Of a DNA stretch of 52,184 nucleotides, positions 284-52,184 are shown in pieces. How positions within the stretch are numbered: position 1 is the stretch's first letter; each line of letters opens with the position of its first letter. A program made the position numbers and the translations under genes. This DNA comes from a virus (taxonomy: Duplodnaviria; Caudoviricetes), in the IMG/VR virus record IMGVR_UViG_3300036852_000533, positions 1 through 52,184 of that record; one strand, written 5' to 3'. A model generated the notes under the pieces. It did not search any database, was not told the origin of the DNA, and was given only the letters and a program-made list of their open reading frames with translations.

Positions 284-477
284 GCGACTACGCCGAACTG
301 TGCAAAGACCTGCGCGAACAGCGAAAGCTCGACCGCGAGAGGTATGGCGTGCCGTGCCCTGAGTGCGTCAGGCTGCTGCCGAAGGCGAATCCATCCATCC
401 TTCTGCCCGGCCAACGATGCCGCATCCACCGATACCGCGACCCGCGCAAACCCGAGAACAAACCACCGACCCCATGA
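280..477 (+). CDS. Small hypothetical protein with CxxC
   Basis: ATGA overlaps with both neighbours; CPEC motif. Confidence 0.65.
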   Translation: MSDYAELCKDLREQRKLDRERYGVPCPECVRLLPKANPSILLPGQRCRIHRYRDPRKPENKPPTP

Positions 478-1340
478 AAACCACCAAACCGGAAGAATCA
501 CAACAACTAGCCATGCTCGAACCGCCAGAATCGCAACTGCCCGCGCGCCAAGTCGCCTCGCTCACAGGCATCAACATCGCCGCGCTGATTGACAAGGCGG
601 TGGACGCCAAAGCCGCCATTGAAGTCTTGAAGGAACTCCGCGCGATGGAGCGCGACATTGCCGCCGAGCGTTCCAAGGCCGCGTTCGATGAGTCCATGTC
701 CGGGTTTCAGGTGGAGTGCGAACCCATCCTGAAAGAGAAGGGCGTGCCCACGTCGTCCGGTGCGATGGCTTACAAGTACGCTCCGATTGAGGCCATTGAG
801 ATTCAGATTCGCCCACTCTGCCGCAAGCACGGCTTCTCGCACACGTTCGACACCGACACGACCAGCGCGGAGGGCTGGGTGATCGCCAAGTGTCTGGTGA
901 CTCACAAGGATGGCCACTCGCGCGTCAGCACGGCGAAGTTTCCGCTCGGGACCAAGACGAACATCATGTCGAATACGCAACAGTACGCAGCCGCCCTGAC
1001 GTTCGCCAACCGCCGCGCACTCTGCAACGCCTACGGCTTGATTCTGGTAGGTGAGGATTTGGATGGTGACAGCGGCAGGCTTAAAGGCTCCAAAACCACC
1101 GTTCGCCCGCAAGCGCAACCCACCCACGACGACGCCACGAACAAGCGCAAGCTCGTGGACATGCTGCGGAATGTCATTGGCGTTGCCTCTGGTTACAATC
1201 TCGACTTGCGGGCAAAGGAACTGCTAGACGGTTATCTCCATGACGAAAACATCATTGGAGATCAGCAAGGACTGTCAGACCTGGCTGGTGCGGAACTGGC
1301 CAACGCCGTCGCGAAGGTTCAGGCGAAATTGAGCCTATGA
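474..1340 (+). CDS. erf: ERF-family single-strand annealing protein
   Basis: YKYAPIEAI..IRPLCRKHGFS and QYAAALTFANRRALCNAYGL..EDLDG match ERF motifs; start reassigned to ATG 474. Confidence 0.85.
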   Translation: MKTTKPEESQQLAMLEPPESQLPARQVASLTGINIAALIDKAVDAKAAIEVLKELRAMERDIAAERSKAAFDESMSGFQVECEPILKEKGVPTSSGAMAYKYAPIEAIEIQIRPLCRKHGFSHTFDTDTTSAEGWVIAKCLVTHKDGHSRVSTAKFPLGTKTNIMSNTQQYAAALTFANRRALCNAYGLILVGEDLDGDSGRLKGSKTTVRPQAQPTHDDATNKRKLVDMLRNVIGVASGYNLDLRAKELLDGYLHDENIIGDQQGLSDLAGAELANAVAKVQAKLSL

Positions 1341-1382
1341 AGACTCCCGAACTCGCCCGCGACGAGGGCGGTCGCTCGTAAG

Positions 1383-1697
1383 ATGGACACTCAAAGTGCA
1401 AAGCCGATCGGAGCGCAGGACAATGGCGCGGTTCGCTGCACTGTCGGGTTAGGCGCACGGAGTGAGTCAGCAACGAGTAAATGGCGAAGAAACAACCCAG
1501 AGAGGGCACTGGCCAAACACCTGAAAGATGAAGCGAAGAAAAACGAACGAAAACACGAAGCGGGCGGGCGCGCAGAAACCCAAACGAAATGTGTCGAGTG
1601 CGGGATGGTCTTTGACCGCACGGAGGCACACGTCCGAGGCTTCCGAATCCTCAAAGGAAACCGGGGCTACAACTGCATCTGCGATGAGTGCGCCTAA
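1383..1697 (+). CDS. Cassette-borne Zn-finger-like protein, paralog of 8685..8990
   Basis: CVEC...CICDECA; stop TAA lies in the GCCTAAC core box; reads through an attC half-site. Confidence 0.7.
   Translation: MDTQSAKPIGAQDNGAVRCTVGLGARSESATSKWRRNNPERALAKHLKDEAKKNERKHEAGGRAETQTKCVECGMVFDRTEAHVRGFRILKGNRGYNCICDECA
1426..1454 (-). repeat. attC half-site (R''/L'' arm only)
   Basis: Plus strand GCGCGG-TTC-GCTGCACT-GTCGG-GTTAGGC, same layout as the arms of the intact sites; partner arm not found. Confidence 0.6.
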
Positions 1698-1797
1698 CGT
1701 CGCATTAAGCCACGCCGATGAAACCTGAACCGTCCAATCTCGCCGCGAACCCTGTGCCGCCAACGCCCCCGGCGCTGGCTTCAGTAAGTGGTTATGC
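1692..1797 (-). repeat. attC recombination site (intact)
   Basis: Plus strand GCCTAAC-GTCGC-ATTAAGCCACGCCG ... CGGCGCTGGCTTCAGT-AAGTG-GTTATGC; imperfect hairpin with unpaired bases on the right arm. Confidence 0.8.
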
Positions 1798-2023
1798 GGT
1801 GGGTGACAAAGTGACGGCAACGAGAAACATCTGGAGTGCTGCCAACGAGGACTCGCCCATGTATCTCTGCGCTTATCGTGGCGACATCTTAGAAATCCGC
1901 CGACTTGGTTCGTGTGGGTGGGCCTGCTACGTCGCACATCCCGAAAAAGAATCCGGCCCAATGTTTGGTGTCGAGGCTGGTGAAATCAAACCGCATAACG
2001 CAAAATCACAAAAGGGCAAATGA
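1718..2023 (+). CDS. Cassette-borne hypothetical protein
   Basis: Starts inside the attC loop; body bounded by the inverted pair GTTATGCGGT (1791) / ACCGCATAAC (1990). Confidence 0.7.
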   Translation: MKPEPSNLAANPVPPTPPALASVSGYAVGDKVTATRNIWSAANEDSPMYLCAYRGDILEIRRLGSCGWACYVAHPEKESGPMFGVEAGEIKPHNAKSQKGK

Positions 2024-3033
2024 GCTTTCAAAAGTGCCAAATCGTCGGGGTGAACATCTCACCGACGACGTACCATCAACCTCAGAAACACGAGCGCGGG
2101 TCGCCGGAGTTTGTCATGTCTCAATCCGCACTTAAATCCTTCGGAAAATGCCCAAGCAAATGGAAGGACGGCGCCGAGGAGGATGACACCGCTTCAATGG
2201 CGTGGGGCAACTTGGTTGACACGCTCGTTCTCACGCCACAGTTGTTCGCCGAACGCTATGCCATCCGACCCGAGACGTACAAGGATGAGAAGGGCAACGT
2301 GAAGGACTGGCATCCGAACTCCAACACCTGCAAGGCGTGGTTGGAAGCCTGTCACAAGTATGGTCGAGAGGCCATCAGCCGGGGCAAAGAATCCGAGGCG
2401 TCCAAGGCAGTTCTCAGATTGAAGCGCGACGTTCGCATTGCCGCGTTCTTGGCGGTCTGCAAGTTCCAAGTCGAGTTGCGCGGCTTCTGGAAGGACGACG
2501 TGACCGGACTGGAGATACCCGTGCGCTGCCTTTTGGACGCCGTGCCAGAAGGTGACAGTGAATTCGGGAATGACCTTGGCGATCTAAAAACCTCCAAGGA
2601 TGTTTCGCTTTACACCTTCCGCAGGCAGGCTGTCCGGCTCGGATACCACATTCAATCCGCTTTCAGCTTGGACTTCTTCAATGCTGCCAGTGGGCAGCAG
2701 CGCAACCAATGGCGATTTCTCTTGCAGGAGAGTGATCCGCCGTACCAGACGGGCCGGCGCATTTGCACGTCCTACGAGAACCCGCAGGATGCACCACCGC
2801 AGAACTTCATCCAGTTCGGGCGCGACGAATACAAGCGGATGATGCGGAACTACTGCATCTGCCTCAAGGCGGGCGTGTGGGGCGATTTCGATACGACCGA
2901 CGAAAGCGTAGAGGGCTGGAGCGTGCTTGAAGCCGACCCATGGGCCGTGAATGACGCCCTGTTCGCCCCCAAATTCCAGTTGCCCGAGAGTGCGGAGGAT
3001 TTACGGGTCAATGTGGAGGAGATCACACCATGA
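2020..3033 (+). CDS. RecE/exonuclease VIII-like PD-(D/E)XK nuclease (DUF3799-like)
   Basis: SQSALKSF..CP, MAWGNLVDTLVL, RCLLD..DLKTS and GYHIQ motifs; near the SSAP gene. Confidence 0.8.
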   Translation: MSFQKCQIVGVNISPTTYHQPQKHERGSPEFVMSQSALKSFGKCPSKWKDGAEEDDTASMAWGNLVDTLVLTPQLFAERYAIRPETYKDEKGNVKDWHPNSNTCKAWLEACHKYGREAISRGKESEASKAVLRLKRDVRIAAFLAVCKFQVELRGFWKDDVTGLEIPVRCLLDAVPEGDSEFGNDLGDLKTSKDVSLYTFRRQAVRLGYHIQSAFSLDFFNAASGQQRNQWRFLLQESDPPYQTGRRICTSYENPQDAPPQNFIQFGRDEYKRMMRNYCICLKAGVWGDFDTTDESVEGWSVLEADPWAVNDALFAPKFQLPESAEDLRVNVEEITP

Positions 3034-10461: not shown

Positions 10462-10613
10462 ATCCCGAAGCTCGCAAATACCTCGCCAGCATCGGAAGCA
10501 AAGGCGGGAAGGCAACCGGGACAAGCAAGCGGCGTGGGTCTGCCGCCTACTACAAACGAATCTCAAAGCTCGCCGCGAAAGCACGAAAGGCGAAGTCGGG
10601 GAACTCTTATTAA
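10458..10613 (+). CDS. Small basic KGG-motif protein (possible DNA-binding regulator)
   Basis: YLASIGSKGGKATG..RG..YYKRISKLA; stop codon lies within the attI candidate. Confidence 0.7.
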   Translation: MNPEARKYLASIGSKGGKATGTSKRRGSAAYYKRISKLAAKARKAKSGNSY

Positions 10614-10616
10614 GCA
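10598..10616 (-). other. Candidate attI site
   Basis: Minus strand TGCTTAA-TAAGA-GTTCCCC (L box, 5 nt, R box) with no hairpin partner; AGTCGGGGAAC at 10594 is the perfect complement of the cassette's other end GTTCCCCGACT at 10017; immediately upstream of intI. Confidence 0.7.
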
Positions 10617-10626
10617 TCATCCACGC

Positions 10627-11601
10627 ATGTTTAAGGATAATTTCATAACGGTTGCCAGAGCACACGGGTTGCGACTCCAGACCGAACGCGCTTATTACGG
10701 CGCGGCAGCCAAGCATATTAAGTGGCTTGGAGCGAGGTCTGCAAAGGATTTGGAGCGTGATCCGACGAAACAATTCCGGGATTACCTCACCATGCTGGCC
10801 AATGTGAATGGCGATAGAAGCGAAGGCGACGAAGGCATTTCAGCTTCCAGCCAGAATTTGGCATTTCACGCATTGAGATTTCTCTACGAAAAAGTAATCG
10901 GCATCCAGCTTGGAGACCTTTCAAACATTCCGCGCGCAAGCGGGCACGAAAGAATTGTGGATGTGCCCCCTGACGATGTGGCGATAAAACTCGTGCAATC
11001 AGTGCCGGGCGTTAACGGAGTCGCGCTGCGCTTGATCTATGGCACTGCCGGACGGCTCAATGACATTCTGAGATTGCGAGTTAAGGATTTGGACTTCCGC
11101 AGGAAACTCGTGAGCGTGCAGGAGAGCAAGGGTGGTAAATCACGCCTCGTCCCAATGCCGCCTAGTCTGATTCCAGAACTTTCCGCGCTGGTAAAGGAGC
11201 GGGAAAGGATTCACGAGGCAGACTTGGCGGACGGATTTGGGTGGGTTCACATGCCGGGGATGCTGGCCAAAAAATATCCTGGAGAGGAAAACTCGCCCGG
11301 CTGGCAGTACCTGTTCGCATCAGCAACACTTTCCAAAGACCCCATCAGCGGAAAAACGGGGAGGCATCATATCTTTGACGTGACATTGCAACGTGCCTTC
11401 GCCAATGCGCGGCGGAAGTTGCGAATCAAACGGCACTACACTATTCACGGACTCCGCCACGCTGCGGCTCAATGGATGGAGCGCAACGGGGTGACGCGCT
11501 CAACGATTCAGGAAATTCTCGGGCACGAAAATTCGAGTACGACCGACCGTTATCTCCTATCTGGGAAACGCAGCGTGGCGAACGTGCCGACGCCAATCTA
11601 G
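10627..11601 (+). CDS. intI: Integron integrase (IntI-family tyrosine recombinase)
   Basis: N-terminal SAM-like domain (TERAY..SASSQNLAFHALRFLY); catalytic R (GRLND), K (SKGGK), HGLRH, LGH, Y (TTDRY); IntI-specific insert GWVHMPGMLAKKYP..GWQYLF...SKDPISGKTGRHH. Confidence 0.92.
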   Translation: MFKDNFITVARAHGLRLQTERAYYGAAAKHIKWLGARSAKDLERDPTKQFRDYLTMLANVNGDRSEGDEGISASSQNLAFHALRFLYEKVIGIQLGDLSNIPRASGHERIVDVPPDDVAIKLVQSVPGVNGVALRLIYGTAGRLNDILRLRVKDLDFRRKLVSVQESKGGKSRLVPMPPSLIPELSALVKERERIHEADLADGFGWVHMPGMLAKKYPGEENSPGWQYLFASATLSKDPISGKTGRHHIFDVTLQRAFANARRKLRIKRHYTIHGLRHAAAQWMERNGVTRSTIQEILGHENSSTTDRYLLSGKRSVANVPTPI

Positions 11602-12301: not shown

Positions 12302-14152
12302 TCATTTCGAGTGTTGCACCACGAACGGCGCGCTCAAAGCTGTCGTCGTGGCTGAACCGCCGTTGGCGTGATCCAGGTCATCAAAATAGATGGTGTTTCG
12401 GAATCCACCCACGCTTGCCACATGCCCCGCCGAATCCACGGCGATTGCACTGCCACTGGTGGGGGCCGCGCCGCCTGCCCGCTTCACCCATCGGCTTGCG
12501 CCCGTGCTGTTGGCGCTGGCGATGAAATAGGTGGCATTTCCGCTTAGAAATGTGTTTGGAGCGAAGGAAACAAATGACGTAAGCTGGCCGGTGTAGAAGA
12601 TATTTCCGCTGCTGTCCACCGTCACGGAAACACCCAAGTCCCCTGCTCCATAGCCGTAACCGGGAATGTTTGGAGTTCTGGCCCACAAGTAATTTCCACT
12701 CACATCGTACGCCGCAAGAAACAGGCCGCCATCGTTGTTGGCTGTGCCGTCATAATATGCCACCACCGGGCCTCCCACGGATGAGGAAGCACGATAATTC
12801 CCCGTGGCGATGATATTTCCGGTGATCGGGTCAGCGGCAACAGCCTTGATGCCGTCGTCTGAAGGACTACCTCTTGGCTTGAACCATTTGCACAGCCCGT
12901 CCGATCCTGAAAATTTTACCAGAAACACGTCGTAACCCGCACTGACCACACTCTGGCCACACAGATTGACCGTGCCATTGTATCCTCCACACAGGACTGC
13001 ATCTCCGAACTTGTCAATGGCCAGAGCACTCGGGCTGTTTAGAATCAAGGACGATGAGGAAAACCCTTTGGCCCAGAGCGCCGTGCCGTTATTACTGGAT
13101 AGCTTGGCGACAGCGATGGCATTACCGGGACCGGTGTTGGCGACGGTAAAGCTGTCAAACACCATTCCAGTGCCGACAAACTGACAGGCAACAAACACGT
13201 TGCCGCTTCCATCCAATGACACGCCTTTGCCTCCTGAACTGGATGACGAACCAAAGCGTCTCGCCCAGATGAGAGTGCCCGGAACACCGGAAGTGCCGGG
13301 AGAATATTTGGCGACATACGTATCGGTGGAGGCCACTGCCGTCAGCGGTGTGCCGCCGAAGTCCACCGTGCCTGAAAAGAATCCACAGACGATAATGTTC
13401 CCGGTTGAGTCCGTGGCCACACCCGTCACATCTTCATTGTAGATGCCGCCGAGGCGCTTCGCCCAAAGCAGACCGCCCTGGGAGTTGTATTTGACAACGA
13501 AAATGTCCGTTCCGCCCGCTGATTCCAGATGAGTGTTTCCGAAATCAACGTAGGGAGCGAACGCACCGGAGGAGATGACGTTTCCATTGGCATCAGCGGC
13601 CACGGCAGTTGGGCTGGCGTTCGCGTTAAGCACGCCGATACCAACCCATCTGAACGTTCCCGGAACGGGCGCATTGGTCGGCCTGGCCACGACGCGATAA
13701 ACCATCATACTGTTCGTGCGTGGGAGTTGCAGGACGTTTGTGCTGTTGGTCGGTGGATACACTGATGAAGCTTGTAACCATGTTGCGCCGCTGGGAACCA
13801 CTGTCGGTTTGCTCTCGATGAAACTCTCGTAACTATTGGTCGCCGTCCATTTCAGGACGACGGTGTTCGAGCTTTTCGTGATGAAAATGGCGGCGGGATA
13901 TGAACCGAGCGGTGTTGTCGGAACTGGTGGAGGTTGTGCGGCGACCATTGCAGCAATCTGATTCGTGGTCGGCACATAATAGTTCTTCGTCGGATCAATT
14001 GCGGCCGTGCTCACCATCGGCTTGTTGAGCGTGTCGGCGCTGGCCGCGTCCTTCGGGCTGCGGACTTTGGCGTTCAATGGCAGCACAAGCATCATCACGC
14101 ACGCCGCAAGCAGCGTGAGGGCCAGAATCTTTTCCTCGGTGCGCCAGTTCAT
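12302..14152 (-). CDS. Secreted-type beta-propeller (SBBP-like repeat) protein
   Basis: Repeated VAxDxxGN..G.F..TVDFG..DxFVVKY..G..LWAK blades; N-terminal signal-like segment; start reassigned to 14152. Confidence 0.75.
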   Translation of the reverse strand: MNWRTEEKILALTLLAACVMMLVLPLNAKVRSPKDAASADTLNKPMVSTAAIDPTKNYYVPTTNQIAAMVAAQPPPVPTTPLGSYPAAIFITKSSNTVVLKWTATNSYESFIESKPTVVPSGATWLQASSVYPPTNSTNVLQLPRTNSMMVYRVVARPTNAPVPGTFRWVGIGVLNANASPTAVAADANGNVISSGAFAPYVDFGNTHLESAGGTDIFVVKYNSQGGLLWAKRLGGIYNEDVTGVATDSTGNIIVCGFFSGTVDFGGTPLTAVASTDTYVAKYSPGTSGVPGTLIWARRFGSSSSSGGKGVSLDGSGNVFVACQFVGTGMVFDSFTVANTGPGNAIAVAKLSSNNGTALWAKGFSSSSLILNSPSALAIDKFGDAVLCGGYNGTVNLCGQSVVSAGYDVFLVKFSGSDGLCKWFKPRGSPSDDGIKAVAADPITGNIIATGNYRASSSVGGPVVAYYDGTANNDGGLFLAAYDVSGNYLWARTPNIPGYGYGAGDLGVSVTVDSSGNIFYTGQLTSFVSFAPNTFLSGNATYFIASANSTGASRWVKRAGGAAPTSGSAIAVDSAGHVASVGGFRNTIYFDDLDHANGGSATTTALSAPFVVQHSK

Positions 14153-15402
14153 TGCGGATGCCAGACCATGATTGGAGTTGCCACGCTGTAAGTGATCGTT
14201 GTCCATTCTCCCGGTTGGAGCGGAATCGTGTGATCGCCAGAAACCAGCGTTCCGAAAATGGCCGCGCCGTTCAGATTTACCGCCGTGGTCGCGCCGTTGG
14301 CGTCGAGAAATACATTCACGTTTTTGGTGAGCGTGTTCGTCCAATTAAATGGAGATGCGGTAACACTGATACTCGTTGAGGCCAGTTGGTTGGAGGCGTA
14401 GGAAGCGACACCATTCGTTACATAAATCTGTTGTTGCAAATGAAGGTTGCTAAGGAGCAACGAACACGTCACTTCGCCGGAGTTCACAATCCTGCCGATA
14501 TTCACCGCACTTGGCTCAAGACCGATTTGGGTTGACCCACTTCGCGGCACGAAGAATCCATTGCCGGTGTAGGAGTAACCCTGAACATTCAAGTCTCCAG
14601 TCGCCACATAGGCAGTGGGGACTTGGAGATTGCCGCTGAGATTGGTCTGCCCGCCGTTCGTCAGGCAGAGGGTGATTTTCGTGACGGTATTTGTTCCGGC
14701 GGTGAAGGTATGAGTGTTGGTGTTGATTGCGACCCACTCGAACGGCGCTACGGGATTGCTAGACAAAAGGAATGAGAAAGAGTTGGCGTTCGTGAGAAGC
14801 GGCCCAGGCGGGAGTGCGTTCACCTGAGCGAAAGTGGTGGCCGTGCCATCGGCGTCAATCGGGACTGCGCCGCTGGCGGTGGCATTGGCGATACCACGAG
14901 CACCGTCTCCAACTTGCACACGGCCACTAGTGAGCGTGGCGTTGTTGGTGGTCAGCGTCGCGCCGGTGACGTTGCCGACGGGGATGCTGGGCGACACTCC
15001 GTTGGTGGAAACCGTCCGTCCGTCCGCACTGACGGTAATGCCGCTGCCAGCCGTGACGGTGTTGGACATTCCCGCGCCGTTGCCGGTGAAGCTGCCGGAC
15101 CAACTGTTGCTCGGGTTGATGCGGGCGGTGGGGACGGTGCCGCTGGCGAGGGCGGAGGCGTTTAGATCGGTCAGGCCCGCTCCGTTGCCGATGAAGTTGG
15201 TGGCCACAACGCTGTCTGCGGACAGCGTTCCCAACACAACAAGATTAGTGGTCAACGCGTCAGACTTGATTCCCAGCTTGGAAGTTCCGGTCGTTCCGTA
15301 AAATTGATTGGTGTCAAATGACTGGAAAGAAGGATTGGCCCCAAAGGCTGAAAGGGAAAGTAATAGCGCGCCGAGTATCGAGAATTGAATGAATGATTTC
15401 AT
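14149..15402 (-). CDS. Fibre-like Thr/Asn/Gly-rich protein with a signal-peptide-like N-terminus
   Basis: F.GNGAGLT.LNAS.L.SGTVP.ARI motif typical of trimeric fibres; MKSFIQFSILGALLLSLSAFG. Confidence 0.6.
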   Translation of the reverse strand: MKSFIQFSILGALLLSLSAFGANPSFQSFDTNQFYGTTGTSKLGIKSDALTTNLVVLGTLSADSVVATNFIGNGAGLTDLNASALASGTVPTARINPSNSWSGSFTGNGAGMSNTVTAGSGITVSADGRTVSTNGVSPSIPVGNVTGATLTTNNATLTSGRVQVGDGARGIANATASGAVPIDADGTATTFAQVNALPPGPLLTNANSFSFLLSSNPVAPFEWVAINTNTHTFTAGTNTVTKITLCLTNGGQTNLSGNLQVPTAYVATGDLNVQGYSYTGNGFFVPRSGSTQIGLEPSAVNIGRIVNSGEVTCSLLLSNLHLQQQIYVTNGVASYASNQLASTSISVTASPFNWTNTLTKNVNVFLDANGATTAVNLNGAAIFGTLVSGDHTIPLQPGEWTTITYSVATPIMVWHPQ

Positions 15403-41495: not shown

Positions 41496-43289
41496 ATGTC
41501 AACTGTTTCCAAATACGGTCTAAATTTCCCCGAGGGCACGGACGACTCCCAAATCGAGCAAAGCATGATCCGCGAAGGCGGACAGTGGAAAGGTCCCGGC
41601 GGCATCGTTCGCGGGCACGGCCTGTTTTTCCACTACAAACGGATGTTCCGGCTGTTCTGGCCCGAGGATGACGACCACCGATGGGAGGATGCCGAGCTTC
41701 AAGCCATACTCGACAACCAGTTCACGACGTTAATGGGGTCATCGGGGAGCGTTAAAACGACGACCGCCGCAAAATTCATCCTCTGCTTCTGGTCAACATG
41801 GCCGGATGAAACTACAGTACTCGTTTCCTCAACCGATTTGCGCGGTTTGGAACTTCGCGTGTTTGGCCGATTGAAGGAACTGCACGAACGAGCCAAGAAT
41901 CGCTACGATTGGTTTCCGGGCTTCGTGCTGGACTCAAAAAAGGTCATCGCCACGGACAATATCGAGGAAACTCAGGCGCGCGATCTGCGTCAGGGCATCA
42001 TTTGCATCCCGTGTATCTCCCCTGGTGGCAGCTTTGTCGGACTCGGCAAGTACATCGGTATCCACAACACGCGATTGCTGTTCGTGGGTGATGAGTTCCA
42101 ACTCATGCGCGAGTCAATTCTCGACGCCATCCCAAATCTGCTCAACAACCCCATCGCCAAGTTCATTTTTCTCGGCAACCCGCTTGCTCAAAACGACCCG
42201 CTCGACCGGGTGAGCGAACCACGCGAAGGCTGGTCGTCCATCGGTGTGCCGACCAAAACAATCCGCTGGCGCACCAAGTTCATGGATGGCCTCTGTTTGA
42301 ATCTTCCGGGTCTGGACAGCCCGAATTTTGATTTTCCAGAAGACAAACCAGACCGGTTTCCGTACATGGTTGGCCGACGCAAGGCAACACTCGTGGCGGA
42401 AACCTACGGCAAAGACTCGCAACAGTATTGCTCCCAGATTCTCGGGGTGCGTGTCACCGGATTGACCGCGCGCAAGGTCGTAACGCGAGAACTCTGCGAC
42501 CAGTTCCATGCGTTCGACAAACCCATCTGGCGCGGCGATCCCCGGACGAAAATTTACGCCGTGGACGCCGCTTACGGCACCATCGGCGGCGACCGTTGCA
42601 TTGGCGGCTGGATTGAATTCGGAGTGGACACGGACGGCCATCAACTTTTGAACATCGGCCTGTGGAAATTGATTCCGGTATCGGCGCTGTCAAAGATTCC
42701 TCCTGACGACCAGATTGCGGAGTTTGTGAAACAGGATTGCGAGTCGGAAGGCATCGAACCGGAGAACGTGTTTTTCGACGGACGCACTTTGCTGGCAACA
42801 GCCTTTGCCCGCATCTGGTCGGCCAAGGTCAATCCGGTGGACTTTGGCGGACGCACGACCAATCGCCCCGTCTCAAACGACATCCACATCTTTGACGACA
42901 AGACGGGTCACAAGCGGTTGAAACTTTGTGCCGAACACTACTCAAAATTCGTGACTGAACTCTGGTTCTCCGTCCGTTATTGCATTGAAAGCTCGCAGTT
43001 GCGCGGCATGACGGAGGAGGTCCTGAACGACGGGTTCCCGCGCGAGTGGAAAACTGTGCGCGGCAACCTGATTGAGATTGAAACCAAACGGGAGATGAAG
43101 AATCGCACTGGAAAAAGCCCGGACTTGTTCGATCAACTGGCAACTGCCGTGGAAGGAGCGCGACGACGGGGATTTCAGATTGCCAAGCTCGGCGCGGCCC
43201 ACGCCAAATCGAAAGAACCCGACTGGCTGGAAAAACAGCGCAAGGATTACGAGAAGCTGTTAAGTGACCGAAGGCTTCAAGCGGCCTGA
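41496..43289 (+). CDS. terL: Terminase large subunit
   Basis: GSSGSVKT Walker A-like, LFVGDE Walker B, FLGNP coupling motif, AVDAAYG..DR and KSPDLFD RNase H motifs. Confidence 0.85.
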   Translation: MSTVSKYGLNFPEGTDDSQIEQSMIREGGQWKGPGGIVRGHGLFFHYKRMFRLFWPEDDDHRWEDAELQAILDNQFTTLMGSSGSVKTTTAAKFILCFWSTWPDETTVLVSSTDLRGLELRVFGRLKELHERAKNRYDWFPGFVLDSKKVIATDNIEETQARDLRQGIICIPCISPGGSFVGLGKYIGIHNTRLLFVGDEFQLMRESILDAIPNLLNNPIAKFIFLGNPLAQNDPLDRVSEPREGWSSIGVPTKTIRWRTKFMDGLCLNLPGLDSPNFDFPEDKPDRFPYMVGRRKATLVAETYGKDSQQYCSQILGVRVTGLTARKVVTRELCDQFHAFDKPIWRGDPRTKIYAVDAAYGTIGGDRCIGGWIEFGVDTDGHQLLNIGLWKLIPVSALSKIPPDDQIAEFVKQDCESEGIEPENVFFDGRTLLATAFARIWSAKVNPVDFGGRTTNRPVSNDIHIFDDKTGHKRLKLCAEHYSKFVTELWFSVRYCIESSQLRGMTEEVLNDGFPREWKTVRGNLIEIETKREMKNRTGKSPDLFDQLATAVEGARRRGFQIAKLGAAHAKSKEPDWLEKQRKDYEKLLSDRRLQAA

Positions 43290-43855: not shown

Positions 43856-44355
43856 AAAACTTCCTCCGCGATTCGTACGAGCGCGCCCGGTTTGTTGACT
43901 TTGGTTTCAAGTGCGGTCACGGCGATGGCCAAAGCTGACCAAAGATGGGAACTTATCCCGTACAGCGGGCCTTGATTTTTCTTCGTGCCCACGATGCCGA
44001 ATCGGTCAATTATAGCCTGCCGGATGTTCGGGTCTTTGGCTCTCATGTTTCCGCACAGGTGAAGCTTCACGTCGCGCCGAAACACGAGAATCGCGTCTTG
44101 GCCTGTGATGATTTTCCATTGCTGGTAGAATCTTCCAGTCCAAAGGCATGTTTCAAATACTTCCCTGCCAACACTCATGCCGTAACTTGCCACCATTTCA
44201 ATCGCGAGCGCGTTTTTGGTGTCCGAAGGCTCGTTTGAGATGCGTTGTATGATGACTTCGTTCGTGGCGATCATTCGTTCTGTAACGCAAGACCCGCTCC
44301 ACAGTATCAGCGCGCTTTCGGTTGTCCCCGGGTCAATTGCAATGATGGTGTTCAT
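43852..44355 (-). CDS. RuvC-like Holliday junction resolvase
   Basis: IIAIDPGTT..LAIEMV..VKLHLCG..AKD..HLWSALAIA. Confidence 0.8.
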   Translation of the reverse strand: MNTIIAIDPGTTESALILWSGSCVTERMIATNEVIIQRISNEPSDTKNALAIEMVASYGMSVGREVFETCLWTGRFYQQWKIITGQDAILVFRRDVKLHLCGNMRAKDPNIRQAIIDRFGIVGTKKNQGPLYGISSHLWSALAIAVTALETKVNKPGALVRIAEEVL

Positions 44356-45329
44356 GCTGGGATTGTGAGCTTACCGTCGCCAAAGAAGATTGAAGCCGCC
44401 GGAAAACCACATGCGCCCTTGTGACCCCCACCACCGTACTTGGTCGCGATGGCTGACAAGTCCAAGTCCTTGCGATGCTGCGCGTGGTAGAGGCTGAACG
44501 TCCAGCCGCGCCCGTTGAAGAAGAACGCCATCAGCGCATCGTGCCCCGTTTCGGGAACATCGCACGCGGCGAAGGTCTGCGAGTTGCATCGAGCCGTCGT
44601 AAGCGCGAGGAACTTTAATCCCTCAAACTCCACGACAAAGCTCCGCGCCTTGACCATCGCGGCGTCGCGCGTCTTGTAGCACTGCATGGCCGAGCGACCT
44701 TCTTCAACGATTCGACCGGCTTCGTCGTAATCACGCACGCCATCACCCGATAAAAGTCGCGGCCAGTCAATTTCAGACTGGCTATCCAGTCCGAATTGGA
44801 AAGCGAGGCACGCCTGCCAATCCTCCAACCCATTCGATTGATCCCAAACATCGTACGTCCCGGCAAGCCGCACGGCGAGAGGTTCGGAAACTTTTCGGTC
44901 AACGAAGTCTTGCCTGGTTGGCAACTCGCTCAAGGGATGGCCGACTTTGTTCGCATGACACCAAACCCACATGAGCCGGCACGCGGCCACGCCGTCAATG
45001 CGGTAGCCTGGAATGTTGGCAGGATGTGATTCGATTGCGGTTTTGTGATGATCCAGCCAGTACCAGTCCGTCCAGTCAATCCAGTCGAATGGTTGTGGCA
45101 GCGTCTCCGGTTTTTTGAAATCTAATCCAAACACGCGATCAACCGGCAGGTCGAGCACGTAGATTTTACCGTCTGGAATGGTGAGCGGTTTGTCTGAGAA
45201 ATCCCAACCGATTAGTTCGGCGTCGGGCAGGAATTTGCGCGCGATTTCCGCACAGAATCGTCCGTCCCAATCCGCGTCATGATAGAACACTGTTGTTTGC
45301 ATGGAATCCTTTCCTGGTTTGTTTTTCAT
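44352..45329 (-). CDS. DHH/DHHA1-family phosphoesterase
   Basis: YHDADWDG, YVLD, WLDHHK and YGGGGHKGACGF; start reassigned to 45329 (alternative 45302). Confidence 0.88.
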   Translation of the reverse strand: MKNKPGKDSMQTTVFYHDADWDGRFCAEIARKFLPDAELIGWDFSDKPLTIPDGKIYVLDLPVDRVFGLDFKKPETLPQPFDWIDWTDWYWLDHHKTAIESHPANIPGYRIDGVAACRLMWVWCHANKVGHPLSELPTRQDFVDRKVSEPLAVRLAGTYDVWDQSNGLEDWQACLAFQFGLDSQSEIDWPRLLSGDGVRDYDEAGRIVEEGRSAMQCYKTRDAAMVKARSFVVEFEGLKFLALTTARCNSQTFAACDVPETGHDALMAFFFNGRGWTFSLYHAQHRKDLDLSAIATKYGGGGHKGACGFPAASIFFGDGKLTIPA

Positions 45330-45526
45330 GCCATGTATTTCGCGCCTTTCGTGGTCAGGTTCAGTCTCCGCGATCTCGAACGCAGGTTTCGCCGATACGC
45401 CAGACCTGCTTTTCCCAGTTCTTGAACGACGGCCTCGCTCGGAGAACAAATGAGGCCGGCAAGCAATTCTTTCATTGCCTGCAACGCCTCGGGAGACAGG
45501 GAATTTAAGCTCGTTTTCATTTTCAT
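45326..45526 (-). CDS. Small basic hypothetical protein
   Basis: ATGA-coupled in the replication operon. Confidence 0.5.
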   Translation of the reverse strand: MKMKTSLNSLSPEALQAMKELLAGLICSPSEAVVQELGKAGLAYRRNLRSRSRRLNLTTKGAKYMA

Positions 45527-45732
45527 GTTGGTGGTGTTTGGTTGCTTTGCTGGCCGGCGGGAAAGGCGTGCCATGCCACGGTTTCAATCGCCAAAAGTTC
45601 TTGTGGCGTCTTTGCCCCAAGCGCAATGACGTGCTGCCACAATTCGAGATTCCAAAGCTGCGCGAAGTCTCTGCGCGCCGCTTGCAACTGTTCCGCGCGA
45701 TGGGCTAGTTGTGATTCAGTCACGGGGCACAT
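45523..45732 (-). CDS. Small hypothetical protein
   Basis: Overlap-coupled downstream of the helicase gene. Confidence 0.5.
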   Translation of the reverse strand: MCPVTESQLAHRAEQLQAARRDFAQLWNLELWQHVIALGAKTPQELLAIETVAWHAFPAGQQSNQTPPT

Positions 45733-48825: not shown

Positions 48826-49770
48826 ATTCAGCCCTCACAAGACCCGATGGGTGCATTGCTGTTTGCATTGACGTTGACCAAATGGGGAAGGATTGGGCAG
48901 AAAGAGTTGTCACCAAGTTCTTCCTGCCACAATCCGGCGTGGACGCAATCAAACGGAACCCAGAAGGGTCTAAGTTTGAGTTTTCCTGTTTCGCCTCACC
49001 CTGAAACCCTCACCCTTGCGGAACTGTCGGGCTTTCCCTGTGAATGGGTCAACGACATGCTCTTGACCGCTTTTGATGAACGCTCTTGCCGTTCTGGTTT
49101 CGCTTCGGACCTTTGCCTTATCTTCCATAACCGCTATCTCCACTGTCCACTGGTTTCAGCGCGTCCTTCATGGACACACCGCGCCTTAAAAAGGCGACCA
49201 GCGCGGTTATCGTGGGGTTTGAATTCCTGCCTCTTGCAACTTTATGAAATCAAATTAGGACACTGCCGCGCTGTGAAAAGCTGGATGCACCTCTTCCTTT
49301 CCGCCGGAATTGACACCTCAAGGTCGTGCAAAATCATCACTGGTTTTGTATCCAATCGGTCAATGTATGTCAAACTCCAATCTACACGTTCCTACATTTG
49401 TTACTTTTCGTGTATAACTCAGAGGCAGAGGCAGAAAGAGGAGCGTTACCAGATTCTCATGACACGACCGAACCGATCTTTTCGCTTACATCGAAAACTT
49501 TCCAAAAATCCAGCGCGGTCAAAGTAGGGGTGTCACGTACAACCATCCTCGCGCGCAGCGGGGGTATGGGTGGGCACCGTGGGGACGGGTCGGGAGAAAA
49601 AGAATGCTTTAGCTAGCTGGAATTAGTACATGCACAATATCAATTATGTTTAGTTGCGTCGCAACGCAGACTTCAGAGAGCCGGCCCAATGAACGCACCG
49701 ATTGCCAACCCTGACGCGATGCCCGATTTTGCGATGACCGTCAACGCGGTGGTCATTCGCACACACAAGT

Positions 49771-50202
49771 TCAAACTGCCGGCTCTGGCATGGATGCAGA
49801 CTGGCTCTGCGCTGGGCTGGCTACAGGTTGTGGCTCTGCCGGCCTGATCGTGCCTTGGACTTGCTTCACTGGCTTCGCTGGCTTCGCTGGCGTTGGACGG
49901 TGAGAGCCTGGCAAGGGACGGCCAGCGAGGATTCGCTCTTGTTCGCTCAGGCGTGTTTGTGCGTCCGTCAAGTCTCTGAGCTTGCGCGAGTCCAGCCTCG
50001 GCCGTTCAAGCTCGTCTGTGATCGCCTTGGCAACAAGGTCTAATTGACCGCGCGTGCGTGCAAGACATTTGTCCTGGTAGTCGGTTGACGGGTCTTGAAC
50101 GAGTGTTTCAATCGTTTGGCGAGCTTGCTCCTCCCGTTCAAATCTCAGGCGAGCGGATTTACGCCCCATTTCGGCGGCATTTTCAACGGTGAATTTGGCC
50201 AT
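49771..50202 (-). CDS. Candidate terminase small subunit / DNA-binding protein
   Basis: FT.ENAAEMGRK N-terminus and helical body resemble small-terminase-like proteins; weak call. Confidence 0.4.
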   Translation of the reverse strand: MAKFTVENAAEMGRKSARLRFEREEQARQTIETLVQDPSTDYQDKCLARTRGQLDLVAKAITDELERPRLDSRKLRDLTDAQTRLSEQERILAGRPLPGSHRPTPAKPAKPVKQVQGTIRPAEPQPVASPAQSQSASMPEPAV

Positions 50203-50535
50203 GCGTAAAGCGTTGATAAGCTCGCAACTGTGCAAAGTCAACCGCGTTTGCTATAGCAGAACGAGATTTTGCTGGGTTTGTGCGGAAAACATTGGAGTTT
50301 TAGCGGAAGAATAGACCCGGGGCGTACCAGTGGAAACCCCGGGTGTTGCGTTGGTAGTTCCCCCGGTGCTCTGATTCGGGTTTGCCCCGGGTTGTGTGCT
50401 CAGTTCATTGATGTATTGTGGGCATGTGAGCAGAGACAGACATTTAGATCCCATCAGGCGATGCAACCCTTGGACTCTGCTCACACTTAGCCCGGATGCG
50501 CGCTTGGTGGGGTCTTTCAACAACAAAAGAAAAAA

Positions 50536-50859
50536 ATGACAACTGAAACACTCACGGACCTCGCCAACGAAGGAACTAGCCAGCGGAACATGGGCTGGCT
50601 GCAACTGACCATCTCGACCGGCGATTCAACGCGCCAACTGACCAACGCTCTCAAGGAGCAGGGCTGGATGAAGATGCAACCACGGTTGTGGATACGCCCG
50701 TGCGTCCGGTTTGGAACACAGTCTGAGCACCTCGCCCGGCTGAAAGACCATGTGCCCTACGCTGCCAATCTCCGAGTCATATTCATAACGGACAAGCAGT
50801 GGACCGACTCCGTGACGCTCGTGGGGCCAAATTTTGTACTGCCCTCGAAGGGCCAGTAA
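50536..50859 (+). CDS. Orphan Cas2-like protein (type II-like)
   Basis: LKEQGWMKMQPRLWIRPC...EHLARLKDHVP..ANLRVIFITDKQW...LVG aligns by eye with the type II Cas2 pattern L..DGF.M.Q.SVY.R.C...H..R....LP..G.VR...ITDKQF; the N-terminal FD acidic residue is absent. Confidence 0.7.
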   Translation: MTTETLTDLANEGTSQRNMGWLQLTISTGDSTRQLTNALKEQGWMKMQPRLWIRPCVRFGTQSEHLARLKDHVPYAANLRVIFITDKQWTDSVTLVGPNFVLPSKGQ

Positions 50860-50876
50860 CCCAACGAACAAATAAT

Positions 50877-51062
50877 ATGAAACGCACCGAACTCCAATCC
50901 AAAATCGAAGCCACCGACCGCGAAGTGAGCAAGCTGCGCGAAGAGCGCGCCGCGCTGCCAAAGAATGATGACAGTCTCGCTGCGCGCCGGCTTGACACCG
51001 AGATCGAAGAAGGTCTGAGATGCATCGCTGAACTCAACGATCGAAAGGAAGCGACCTCATGA
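50877..51062 (+). CDS. Small coiled-coil early protein
   Basis: ATG at 50877; coupled to the next gene. Confidence 0.6.
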   Translation: MKRTELQSKIEATDREVSKLREERAALPKNDDSLAARRLDTEIEEGLRCIAELNDRKEATS

Positions 51063-51469
51063 AAACCACCATAACCCCCCGCGCCGACGCGGTTAAGCCG
51101 ATTGCGCCCGTCATGCCCGACAACGAAGACGCGCAGGAGCTTTTGCGCGATCATCCGGCGTTTCGGAAGGATGAACCTTACACGCTCAGTCAAATCATGG
51201 CGAACTTCGAGCTAATGAAGCGCACCACGGATGCGGAATGGTGCCGATGGTTCGCTGAATCGGTGATCGAACGAGGCATTGAGGAGAGTCCAACGCTTTT
51301 AGCGGCGCTGGAGCTAGATATGGCCTTTCACCGCCGGCTATTTGCCATCACCAGCCTTCCCGACTTCAAGGCGGCTGGCTATATCGGGAGCGGGGACGCC
51401 AACGACATGCGCGACTTTCTGTTCGGGCTCAAGCGATCCGCCATCGCCAAAGCGAAAGGCCAGCCATGA
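51059..51469 (+). CDS. Hypothetical early protein
   Basis: SPTLLAALE...AIAKAKG C-terminal motif common in phage early genes. Confidence 0.7.
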   Translation: MKTTITPRADAVKPIAPVMPDNEDAQELLRDHPAFRKDEPYTLSQIMANFELMKRTTDAEWCRWFAESVIERGIEESPTLLAALELDMAFHRRLFAITSLPDFKAAGYIGSGDANDMRDFLFGLKRSAIAKAKGQP

Positions 51470-51663
51470 CCGTCTGCATACATTGGGCACTCCTCGCCAT
51501 CCTGCTGATCGGTTACTCAGGTTCGATTCTGGCGGCTTTGCTGATTGTAGCCGGTCAAGACGGGGTTGGACCGGTAAAAATGACTGGAATCAAGCGCAGC
51601 GCACGGCGCGGGGCATTTCCTCAACTGTCGAGACTCAATCCAAACATCATAATTCACGCATGA
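51466..51663 (+). CDS. Small membrane protein
   Basis: N-terminal hydrophobic segment; ATGA overlaps. Confidence 0.5.
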   Translation: MTVCIHWALLAILLIGYSGSILAALLIVAGQDGVGPVKMTGIKRSARRGAFPQLSRLNPNIIIHA

Positions 51664-51932
51664 ACAAATCCGCTTCACTACTCGGGCGAATCGTCCGTAG
51701 AGTCTTTGGGCCTGACGCTCCACCACCGGGCTACACTATCGAGACTGACGGCAATCATTTTCGCTGGCGCGATAAAAATTACACAAGCTCGATTGACCGT
51801 CCTAGCTATCGAGCGGCGTGCAAAGCGGCATGGCGCTCTGAAATAGACAAACAATGGGCGCGCGAACGAGAGGCAAGGGTTTGGCGCATCGTGAAAGAGC
51901 ATGAACAAACGCGCACACAACTACTACGTTAG
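51660..51932 (+). CDS. Hypothetical early protein
   Basis: ATG at 51660 with ATGA overlap. Confidence 0.55.
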   Translation: MNKSASLLGRIVRRVFGPDAPPPGYTIETDGNHFRWRDKNYTSSIDRPSYRAACKAAWRSEIDKQWAREREARVWRIVKEHEQTRTQLLR

Positions 51933-52083
51933 CTTCTCCGCGACCACCGTTCAGGTGGAGGCTGGAAGTTACGACATGGCCGAATTCAAGGCGCGCTTGG
52001 AATTGAAGGACTCGGCGCGCTGCACCGGCGTTGTTGACCAGGGGGAAGCTGATGACAGGGGGGGAGATTCCATCGAGGATTAA
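51901..52083 (+). CDS. Small hypothetical early protein
   Basis: Stops 2 nt before the ATG that corresponds to position 29 across the circular junction. Confidence 0.55.
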   Translation: MNKRAHNYYVSFSATTVQVEAGSYDMAEFKARLELKDSARCTGVVDQGEADDRGGDSIED

Positions 52084-52184
52084 AAATGAAAACTGAAATT
52101 AAAGACGGCGGCCCAGCGTTCCCGCTTTGCACCCTCAATCCGTCGGACGGAACCAAGTTTCTCTGGCAACAGGGAATGACCCTG
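52058..52184 (+). repeat. Terminal direct repeat, copy 2
   Basis: Identical to 1-127. Confidence 0.95.

What the first reader, a model, noticed from the sequence alone, without database searches (positions are those of the whole stretch)
50536..50859. Orphan type II Cas2 mimic as the first early gene: candidate inhibitor of spacer acquisition
Seen: a 107-aa ORF matching the type II Cas2 pattern including the ITDKQ motif, lacking the N-terminal acidic catalytic residue, with no cas1 or CRISPR array in the genome, and placed first in the early operon. Known: a Cas2 dimer scaffolds the Cas1-Cas2 integrase. Inference: a dominant-negative decoy that poisons host adaptation, i.e. an anti-CRISPR acting on acquisition.
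Basis: partly seen in the sequence, partly recalled or inferred. Interest (0 to 1): 0.82.

Follow-up and report, generated by a model that had tools for sequence, protein, structure and literature searches.

The report
Phage-borne tail-less, inactivated Cas2 copy
A complete phage genome with no other CRISPR parts carries a stripped-down copy of the bacterial CRISPR protein Cas2, missing its catalytic residue and the tail that grips Cas1, so it may sabotage the host's ability to record new phage memories, though this is untested.

Summary
The ORF at 50536-50859 (+), 107 aa, is real and is a divergent type II Cas2 homologue. It hits the PADLOC Cas2_II model directly (E 2e-10). A profile of its subfamily hits five type II Cas2 structures (E 2.9e-7 to 9.2e-5). 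An AlphaFold model (pLDDT 81.8) matches Cas2 structures first. It scores below the curated TIGR01573 cut-off (18.2 vs 24.5 bits), and Pfam and PHROGs give no Cas2 match.

The catalytic Asp column holds Ser27: 33 of 33 canonical relatives have Asp, 0 of 12 variant relatives do. I also found that the C-terminal tail is missing (12 of 12 variants keep 10 or fewer residues after the conserved Gly; 33 of 33 canonical keep 16 or more). In S. pyogenes Cas2 that tail is what binds Cas1 (PMC6182153).

The 52-kb phage has no cas1, cas9, array or Rfam hit. The gene is under purifying selection (dN/dS 0.20) and is the only segment shared with another contig.

Best reading (about 0.35): a poison subunit that pairs with host Cas2 and blocks Cas1-Cas2 assembly. 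Function, host and partners are untested.

The parts
50536..50859 (+). Whole ORF (107 aa plus stop) of the phage Cas2-like protein, P0001
   Evidence: PADLOC Cas2_II E 2e-10; AF2 model pLDDT 81.8; Foldseek best hits are type II-A Cas2
50536..50589 (+). N-terminal extension, residues 1-18: low model confidence and not conserved with the closest homologue P0002. An alternative start at Met19 (50590) would give 89 aa.
   Evidence: pLDDT <50 for residues 1-3 and 5-10; alignment A1. An S-x-(Y/F)-x motif just before MGW is kept in many relatives, which favours an upstream start.
50590..50826 (+). Cas2 ferredoxin-like core, residues 19-97: b1 20-28, a1 33-41, b2 45-48, b3 51-56, a2 62-72, b4 78-85, a3 86-90, then the segment matching swapped strand b5 and ending at the conserved Gly97
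   Evidence: DSSP of the model. HMM alignments place the conserved Gly of profile A3 (P0001 Gly97 by alignment A3) on Gly91 of S. pyogenes Cas2 5zyf.
50614..50616 (+). Ser27 codon in the column of the Cas2 metal-binding Asp (the FDLPV motif of canonical relatives)
   Evidence: Asp in 33 of 33 canonical; in the 12 variants 8 Ser, 1 Val, 1 Ala, 1 Lys, 1 Glu
50785..50799 (+). ITDKQ motif (residues 84-88), end of b4 and start of a3. It lies in the block most similar to canonical Cas2.
   Evidence: Region 74-99 shows mean identity 0.38 to 33 canonical Cas2, the highest of five regions.
50827..50856 (+). Vestigial 10-residue C-terminus in place of the tail of 16 or more residues that ends in a Q-x-x-(F/L)-(W/F) motif in canonical relatives
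   Evidence: tail of 10 or fewer residues in 12 of 12 variants, 16 or more in 33 of 33 canonical; terminal motif in 0 of 12 versus 25 of 33
50242..50535 (.). Divergent intergenic region upstream of the gene (presumed regulatory), holding several inverted repeats
   Evidence: No sigma-70-type promoter was found. It is not conserved in L002.

Best explanation
The gene encodes a Cas2 that a phage lineage captured from a bacterial type II CRISPR-Cas system and then stripped down. It keeps the ferredoxin-like core, including the b4-a3-b5 segment that forms the strand-swapped Cas2 dimer in solved type II-A structures. It has lost the metal-binding Asp and the C-terminal tail that docks Cas2 onto Cas1. 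Proposed mechanism (inferred, not shown): once expressed in the host, it pairs with the host's Cas2 monomers through the conserved dimer segment. The mixed dimers carry one Cas1-docking tail, and dimers of the phage protein alone carry none, so they cannot bridge two Cas1 dimers into the Cas1(4)-Cas2(2) integrase. Spacer acquisition against the phage or prophage is thereby reduced. Shown here: homology, fold, loss of the two features, orphan status, purifying selection, and spread as a single gene. Inferred: dimerisation with host Cas2, any effect on adaptation, early expression, and a host with a type II system.
For: Homology to type II Cas2: (subfamily profile hits PF09827 proteins at about 1e-17 to 1e-21 in 5.8 billion sequences). 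Loss of Asp: (0 of 12 variants versus 33 of 33 canonical). Loss of tail: (12 of 12 versus 0 of 33). P0001 Gly97 maps to Gly91 of S. pyogenes Cas2; the engineered 1-91 truncation of that protein did not bind Cas1, while the 92-113 peptide bound as well as full length, and the truncated form crystallised as a b5-swapped dimer (PMC6182153, passages read). The b4-a3-b5 block is the part most similar to canonical Cas2 (0.38 mean identity, versus 0.20 for loop plus a1). Real, selected gene: dN/dS 0.20 at dS 0.69 against P0002. It is the only segment shared between the window and contig L002 (tblastx; flanks unalignable), as expected of an accessory gene. No cas1, cas9, array or RNA family in the complete phage. 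The tail-less, Asp-less proteins lie on one side of a branch (SH-aLRT 89). Precedent: Cas-homologue Acrs that build defective complexes (review PMC13131331) and a viral Cas2 proposed as a dominant-negative.
Against: There are no functional data of any kind. The host is unknown, so it is not known that it has a type II system. None of the 10 neighbouring ORFs scanned matches a known acr, aca or anti-defence family (Pfam, PHROGs; one hits a PHROG of unknown function). PADLOC gave nothing for the 2 neighbours scanned. The benefit to phages of blocking acquisition is itself debated (PMC13131331). Between P0001 and P0002 the most constrained part is the N-terminal half of the core (dN/dS 0.037). 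That half is also the part most diverged from canonical Cas2, which hints at a new surface and perhaps a new partner rather than simple loss of function. Genomic context is known for only 2 of 12 variant proteins, so the clade is not shown to be phage-specific. Strand-swapped Cas2 dimers may not exchange subunits readily with pre-formed host complexes (my reasoning). Early expression is not shown (no promoter).
Confidence: 0.35

Rival explanations
1. The Cas2 fold has been put to a use unrelated to CRISPR, for example a small nucleic-acid-binding or regulatory protein of the phage's rightward operon. The Cas2 origin would then be only history.
For: The most constrained part (residues 18-57, dN/dS 0.037) is the part least like canonical Cas2. 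The Cas2 fold recurs in non-CRISPR proteins: 17 of 42 relatives also match the PaaX central Cas2-like domain PF20803 and 2 of 42 match VapD. No acr or aca neighbour was found. The gene sits next to a presumed regulatory region with inverted repeats.
Against: P0001 itself matches only Cas2 models and neither PaaX_M nor VapD. The specific loss of exactly the Cas1-docking tail while the dimer segment is kept is not explained by this reading.
Confidence: 0.3
2. It is a Cas2-derived anti-CRISPR that acts on another step or partner, such as Cas9, Csn2, tracrRNA/crRNA or another CRISPR type, rather than by poisoning the Cas2 dimer.
For: AcrVIA2, a Cas3 homologue, inhibits type VI-A rather than its ancestral type I-B system (10.1101/2023.06.24.545427). 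So a Cas homologue need not act on its ancestral complex. The strongly conserved, re-modelled N-terminal half could be a new binding surface.
Against: No evidence here points to any particular partner. Cas2 has no known role in type II interference (established knowledge).
Confidence: 0.15
3. It is a decaying remnant of a CRISPR-Cas locus once carried by the phage and has no present function.
For: Catalytic residue and tail are lost. The gene is rare: each variant cluster holds 1-3 sequences.
Against: dN/dS is 0.20 at dS 0.69 with an intact frame in two unrelated backgrounds. The same truncated architecture is seen in 12 of 12 diverged variant proteins. There are no cas fragments or repeats nearby.
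Confidence: 0.05
4. It is a working Cas2 that cooperates with host Cas1 to drive acquisition in the phage's favour, for example host-derived spacers, as proposed for the Cas4 of Campylobacter phages.
For: Precedent seen only as a search listing and abstract (PMC4283603). The catalytic Asp of Cas2 is not needed for integration in studied systems (PMC6182153 discussion passage on active-site mutants, cut short in my view; otherwise established knowledge).
Against: The Cas1-docking tail is absent (PMC6182153).
Confidence: 0.05

Closest known systems
Type II Cas2 of CRISPR adaptation modules (solved: S. pyogenes 5ZYF, E. faecalis 5XVN, S. thermophilus 6QXF/8Q2N, and the Cas2 of 8IA4/6JHZ)
   Same: Same fold and clear sequence homology over residues ~31-98, including the T-D/E-x-Q-(W/F) motif and the conserved Gly after b5.
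   Different: No Asp at the end of b1. A b1-a1 loop about 7 residues shorter than in canonical relatives (17 versus 24 residues in that segment). No Cas1-docking tail. Not next to cas1, cas9 or an array. Below the curated TIGR01573 cut-off.
Engineered S. pyogenes Cas2(1-91) truncation (PMC6182153)
   Same: It ends at the residue equivalent to P0001 Gly97. That construct still forms the b5-swapped dimer in the crystal but does not bind Cas1 (mapping).
   Different: It is a laboratory construct and was not tested as an inhibitor. P0001 has 10 further residues and a re-modelled N-terminal half.
Cas-homologue anti-CRISPRs AcrIB3 (Cas5-like), AcrIB4 (Cas8b C-terminal domain-like) and AcrVIA2 (Cas3-like); orphan viral cas genes in IMG/VR (10.1101/2023.06.24.545427)
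   Same: A cas gene copied onto a mobile element without its system. The proposed action is assembly into a defective complex.
   Different: Those act on interference complexes and were tested. I saw no Cas2-derived example in the text. Their Table S3, which lists the 358 genes, is a supplement I could not open, so this gene or other cas2 genes may be in it.
Cas2 homologue of the Bathyarchaeia virus 'Chiyouvirus' (10.1101/2023.08.24.554615)
   Same: A virus-encoded lone Cas2 for which the authors suggest dominant-negative inhibition of spacer acquisition.
   Different: It is an archaeal virus, it retains the Mg-binding site, and it sits with mini-CRISPR arrays. It is also untested.
Acquisition-blocking Acrs: AcrVA5 (binds and acetylates Cas2, PMC11021501) and truncated AcrIIA6 (as described in review PMC13131331)
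   Same: They target the adaptation stage. AcrVA5 acts on Cas2 and partly disassembles Cas1-Cas2.
   Different: They are unrelated folds, not Cas homologues.

Membership tests
Cas2 (TIGR01573 / PF09827; type II branch) | Significant match to family sequence profiles | tested here: met
   PADLOC Cas2_II E 2e-10, and 7 of 7 PADLOC hits are Cas2. Subfamily profile versus PDB: 5 type II Cas2 at E 2.9e-7 to 9.2e-5. 36 of 42 relatives hit TIGR01573.
Cas2 (TIGR01573 / PF09827; type II branch) | Score above the curated family cut-off (equivalog level) | tested here: not met
   TIGR01573 18.2 bits versus cut-off 24.5. No PF09827 hit. None of the 8 other variant proteins scanned reaches the cut-off (best 23.8 bits).
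Cas2 (TIGR01573 / PF09827; type II branch) | Ferredoxin-like b-a-b-b-a-b fold with a C-terminal a3/b5 segment | tested here: met
   AF2 model pLDDT 81.8. Foldseek: best hits are type II-A Cas2, TM 0.5-0.66, 6 hits at E<=0.001.
Cas2 (TIGR01573 / PF09827; type II branch) | Conserved metal-binding Asp at the end of b1 | tested here: not met
   Ser27 in that column; Asp in 33 of 33 canonical and 0 of 12 variants.
Cas2 (TIGR01573 / PF09827; type II branch) | C-terminal tail that docks onto Cas1 | tested here: not met
   10 residues after the conserved Gly, versus 16 or more in 33 of 33 canonical. Terminal Q-x-x-(F/L)-(W/F) motif in 0 of 12 variants versus 25 of 33 canonical. Role of the tail from PMC6182153.
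Cas2 (TIGR01573 / PF09827; type II branch) | Encoded beside cas1 and a CRISPR array | tested here: not met
   No Cas1, Cas9, array or Rfam family in the complete 52-kb genome.
Cas2 (TIGR01573 / PF09827; type II branch) | Forms a homodimer | not testable with these tools
   Only indirect: the b4-a3-b5 segment is retained and is the best-conserved block. Binding needs an experiment.
Anti-CRISPR of the Cas-homologue kind (AcrIB3/AcrIB4-like) | A homologue of a Cas subunit on a mobile element that lacks the cognate system | tested here: met
Anti-CRISPR of the Cas-homologue kind (AcrIB3/AcrIB4-like) | Neighbourhood of known acr/aca or anti-defence genes | tested here: not met
   None of the 10 neighbouring ORFs matches such a family in Pfam or PHROGs. 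No dedicated Acr/Aca library was available.
Anti-CRISPR of the Cas-homologue kind (AcrIB3/AcrIB4-like) | Demonstrated inhibition of a CRISPR-Cas stage | not testable with these tools
   Needs an acquisition or interference assay.
VapD / Cas2-like toxins | Match to the VapD profile and a catalytic acidic residue | tested here: not met
   P0001 has no NF041506 hit; only 2 of 42 relatives do, best E 5.4e-4. The Asp is absent.

The most novel reading that the evidence does not exclude
P0001 belongs to a small, previously undescribed clade of Cas2 proteins that have shed both the catalytic Asp and the Cas1-docking tail and that travel as single genes on phages. They would be the first Cas2-derived anti-CRISPRs. 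They would act as poison subunits that cap host Cas2 and so abolish type II spacer acquisition. The form may have arisen more than once: P0022 and P0087 are closer to one canonical Cas2 group (46-51% identity) than to the main variant clade (39% or less).
Probability: 0.3. Interest if true: 0.75.

Novelty: new variant of a known kind. Interest (0 to 1): 0.55.

Why it matters
Nearly all known anti-CRISPRs block interference. Only a few are reported to block memory formation, and none of those I found is a Cas2 relative. A natural Cas2 that keeps the dimer core but lacks the Cas1-docking tail gives a simple, directly testable design for a dominant-negative inhibitor of the Cas1-Cas2 integrase. 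It would add Cas2 to the list of cas genes that phages have turned against CRISPR. It would also bear on the open question of whether phages gain from blocking spacer acquisition. If the function is something else, the clade is still a clean case of a core Cas protein being re-modelled on a mobile element.

Tried and rejected
A homodimer prediction (complex prediction, two copies of residues 16-107 with alignment A2) returned 'no answer'. The median score was 0.41 against a mark of 0.42, with controls at 0.00, 0.00 and 0.14. I count it neither for nor against binding.

I did not send a heterodimer job with a stand-in Cas2, because the true host Cas2 is unknown and only one job was allowed.

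The first AF2 run, with a 2-sequence alignment, gave a poor model (pLDDT 57.6). The 42-sequence run replaced it.

I considered that the variant might have lost a basic DNA-binding patch in the loop and a1. I rejected this: K+R averages 4.2 in variants against 4.8 in canonical proteins, and net charge is not lower.

Searches for the gene elsewhere gave little:
- blastn and tblastn against 50,697 phage records found nothing.
- tblastn against plasmids gave only 2 marginal hits (E 0.06-0.07, one of them an annotated cas2).
- Five scans of IMG/VR and two of genome contigs found no relative.
- One metagenome scan found a single locus, L002.
- Foldseek against viral models (BFVD) gave 0 hits at E<=0.001.
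- A canonical relative (P0007) hit only 3 phage records weakly.

Host identification failed. There are no tRNAs. DnaB relatives are spread over many host groups at under 40% identity. Atlas taxa were mixed.

Whether tail-less forms arose twice was not tested formally. The best tree puts all 12 on one side of a branch, so separate origins are only suggested by identities.

Literature: I found no Cas2-derived anti-CRISPR in searches, nor in the passages read from the 2026 review PMC13131331. Supplementary tables, notably Table S3 of 10.1101/2023.06.24.545427, were closed and may list viral cas2 genes.

Full report
WHAT THE WINDOW IS. The window is a whole virus record of 52,184 bp with 127-bp direct terminal repeats, rated 100% complete. 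Genes lie on the + strand from about 50.5 kb across the ends to about 11.7 kb, and on the - strand from about 11.9 to 50.2 kb.

- The + block holds many small ORFs, an ERF-type recombinase (363-1340), a PDDEXK/DUF3799 nuclease (2020-3033) and a tyrosine integrase (10534-11601).
- The - block holds a P63C-domain protein, a DnaB helicase, a DHH-phosphoesterase-like protein and large ORFs without PHROG matches.
- blastn of 49000-52184 against 50,697 phage records found nothing. The lineage is therefore poorly sampled, and the host is unknown.

THE OBSERVATION. The ORF 50536-50859 (+) exists and encodes 107 aa with the ITDKQ motif at residues 84-88.

Alone, it is a weak match to curated models:
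- TIGR01573 cas2: E 0.0022, 18.2 bits, against a cut-off of 24.5.
- Pfam: no Cas2 hit.
- PHROGs: no hit.

Other evidence makes the homology secure:
- The PADLOC type II Cas2 model PDLC02068 matches residues 32-98 at E 2e-10. All 7 PADLOC hits are Cas2 models.
- An exhaustive HMMER search of 1.84 billion representatives with the two-sequence profile gave 44 hits at E<=0.001. I dropped three repetitive ones (P0039-P0041) and added P0002. Of the resulting 42 aligned sequences (P0001 and P0002 included), 36 hit TIGR01573 and 32 hit PF09827.
- A profile of nine close relatives (A3) hits canonical PF09827 proteins at about 1e-17 to 1e-21 in a 5.8-billion-sequence database. Against the PDB it hits five distinct Cas2 sequences at E 2.9e-7 to 9.2e-5, with the next hit at 0.037. 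Three are named type II-A in entry titles or in PMC6182153. For 6jhz/8ia4, passages of PMC11021501 point to Treponema denticola.
- An AlphaFold2 model built with the 42-sequence alignment has mean pLDDT 81.8 and the order b-a-b-b-a-b plus a short helix.
- Foldseek against the PDB ranks S. pyogenes, E. faecalis and S. thermophilus type II-A Cas2 first, with 6 hits at E<=0.001. Every row listed above rank 28 is a Cas2 entry. For chains inside Cas1-Cas2 complexes I infer Cas2 from chain lengths of about 100 residues.
- Language-model look-alikes are also Cas2 clusters, but at scores of 0.78-0.82, which the tool rates as leads only.

WHAT IS MISSING FROM THE PROTEIN. I aligned 12 'variant' proteins (P0001 and the relatives built like it) with 33 full-length canonical relatives. 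From the 88 proteins held I left out fragments, near-duplicates and chimeras.

- The Asp of the FDLPV motif is present in 33 of 33 canonical proteins and 0 of 12 variants. P0001 has Ser27 there.
After the conserved Gly (P0001 Gly97), canonical proteins have 16-98 more residues (33 of 33 have 16 or more). In 25 of 33 the last 12 residues hold a Q-x-x-(F/L)-(W/F) motif. Variants have 0-10 residues (12 of 12) and never the motif.
- The HMM alignment puts the profile's conserved Gly, which is P0001 Gly97 in alignment A3, on Gly91 of S. pyogenes Cas2. Ka et al. (PMC6182153, passages read) report three relevant results. Residues 1-91 of that protein crystallise as a b5-swapped dimer. The same fragment does not bind Cas1 in gel filtration. 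The 92-113 peptide binds Cas1 with about the affinity and stoichiometry of the full protein. P0001 therefore resembles a natural version of that truncation.
- The block that makes the swapped dimer (b4-a3-b5, residues 74-99) is the part of P0001 most like canonical Cas2 (mean identity 0.38). The loop plus a1 is the least like it (0.20).

IS IT A LIVE GENE?
- The closest homologue, P0002 (68% identity), lies on a 4.6-kb metagenome contig, L002. Over 83 aligned codons dN/dS is 0.20 at dS 0.69. In the first 40 codons it is 0.037.
- tblastx finds no other similarity between L002 and the window, and the flanks do not align. The gene therefore moves on its own between otherwise unrelated backgrounds.
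- In a quick maximum-likelihood tree of 49 proteins, the 12 variants fall on one side of a branch (SH-aLRT 89). Many inner forks are unresolved and several variants have long branches.
- P0022 and P0087 are more similar to one canonical group (46-51%) than to other variants outside their own pair (39% or less). A second origin is possible but untested.
- The variant proteins are rare, with 1-3 sequences per 90% cluster.

ORPHAN STATUS AND NEIGHBOURHOOD.
- The genome has no match to Cas1 (PF01867, TIGR03639) or Cas9 (TIGR01865) at E<=10. It has no spaced direct-repeat array, no Rfam family and no tRNA.
- The gene follows a 294-bp gap from the divergent ORF 49771-50241. The gap has several inverted repeats but no sigma-70-like promoter by the simple scan.
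- Ten neighbouring ORFs gave no Pfam hit relevant to defence or counter-defence (only ERF and DUF3799). The PHROG scan of ten neighbours gave a hit for one ORF only, best to a family of unknown function and weakly to a transcription-regulator family.
- No dedicated Acr/Aca library was available. 'First gene of the rightward block' is confirmed. 'Early' is an inference from gene content.

HOW IT MOST LIKELY WORKS. The anatomy keeps the dimer segment, loses the Cas1-docking tail and loses the Asp, in a gene that is selected, mobile and orphan on a phage that carries an integrase. This fits a poison subunit best. The protein would pair with host type II Cas2, and the resulting dimers could not bridge two Cas1 dimers, so spacer integration would fall.

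A decoy that binds Cas1 is unlikely without the tail. I put this reading at about 0.35, because nothing functional is known, the host is unknown and no acr/aca neighbour supports it.

The strong constraint on the re-modelled N-terminal half also leaves room for a new partner. The rivals are:
- a non-CRISPR use of the fold (0.3);
- a Cas2-derived Acr acting elsewhere (0.15);
- a dead remnant (0.05), disfavoured by selection and by the recurrent architecture;
- a helper of acquisition working with host Cas1 (0.05), disfavoured by the missing tail.

COMPARISON WITH WHAT IS KNOWN.
- Katz et al. (10.1101/2023.06.24.545427, passages read) showed Cas-homologue Acrs: AcrIB3 and AcrIB4 assemble into defective Cascade, and AcrVIA2 is a Cas3 homologue. 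They counted 358 orphan viral cas genes in IMG/VR. The text I read names no Cas2 case, and I could not open their Table S3.
- Duan et al. (10.1101/2023.08.24.554615) suggested, without a test, that the lone Cas2 of an archaeal virus could be a dominant-negative inhibitor. That protein keeps its Mg site.
- The 2026 review PMC13131331 (passages read) lists AcrVA5 and a truncated AcrIIA6 as acquisition blockers and notes that the benefit of such blockers is debated.
- A 2024 review (PMC11656645, passages read) states that very few Acrs derive from Cas proteins.
- My five literature searches found no Cas2-derived Acr and no tail-less Cas2 clade.

I therefore rate this as a new variant of a known kind: an orphan viral cas gene and candidate Cas-homologue Acr. 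The concept is not new, but this particular architecture has not been described in what I could search.

VERDICT. Interest 0.55.

LIMITS.
- The complex prediction gave no verdict (see Tried and rejected).
- The host could not be inferred.

Noticed in passing
window 50242-50535: The divergent intergenic region upstream of the gene has several inverted repeats, including a perfect 11-nt pair at 50425-50435 / 50475-50485 (39 nt between the arms) and GC-rich CCCGGG-type arms at 50315-50392. The scan found no sigma-70-type promoter. The region is not conserved upstream of the homologue in L002.
   Followed up: partly
window 50587-50706 (codons 18-57 of the ORF): Between P0001 and P0002 the first 40 aligned codons of the core are almost invariant at protein level (dN/dS 0.037, with 11 synonymous differences). 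This is also the part most diverged from canonical Cas2. It may be a newly evolved functional surface.
   Followed up: partly
proteins P0022 and P0087 (metagenomic relatives): These two tail-less, Asp-less proteins share the N-terminal MDTEKFKMGW start and the TRAQWERS signature with one canonical Cas2 group. They are 46-51% identical to that group, but at most 39% to variants outside their own pair. The stripped-down form may have arisen more than once.
   Followed up: partly
protein P0027 (metagenomic relative, 170 aa): A single ORF joins the N-terminal part of a type II Cas1 (TIGR03639 positions 36-128, E 1.4e-21) to the C-terminal two-thirds of a Cas2. It is either a deletion fusing cas1 to cas2 or an assembly chimera.
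   Followed up: no
window 12302-44355 (- strand): Of the 8 large - strand ORFs scanned in this stretch, 7 (339 to 1438 aa) have no PHROG match at E<=1e-5; the exception is a beta-propeller repeat protein at 12302-14344. A ninth - strand ORF scanned, 44352-45626, is DHH-phosphoesterase-like. No phage record matched 49000-52184 by blastn. The phage lineage looks poorly sampled.
   Followed up: no
window 41496-43289 (+): A 597-aa ORF lies on the + strand inside the otherwise - strand block and overlaps - strand ORFs. It has no Pfam hit, and I did not resolve whether it is coding.
   Followed up: no
window, upstream of 35 gene starts: Few genes have a recognisable Shine-Dalgarno sequence, and the Cas2-like gene is preceded by an A-rich leader. 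This may point to a host with weak Shine-Dalgarno use.
   Followed up: no
window 363-3033 and 10534-11601: The rightward block combines an ERF recombinase, a PDDEXK/DUF3799 nuclease and a tyrosine integrase. Other first-stage notes read this region as an integron-like cassette array. I did not examine that claim.
   Followed up: no
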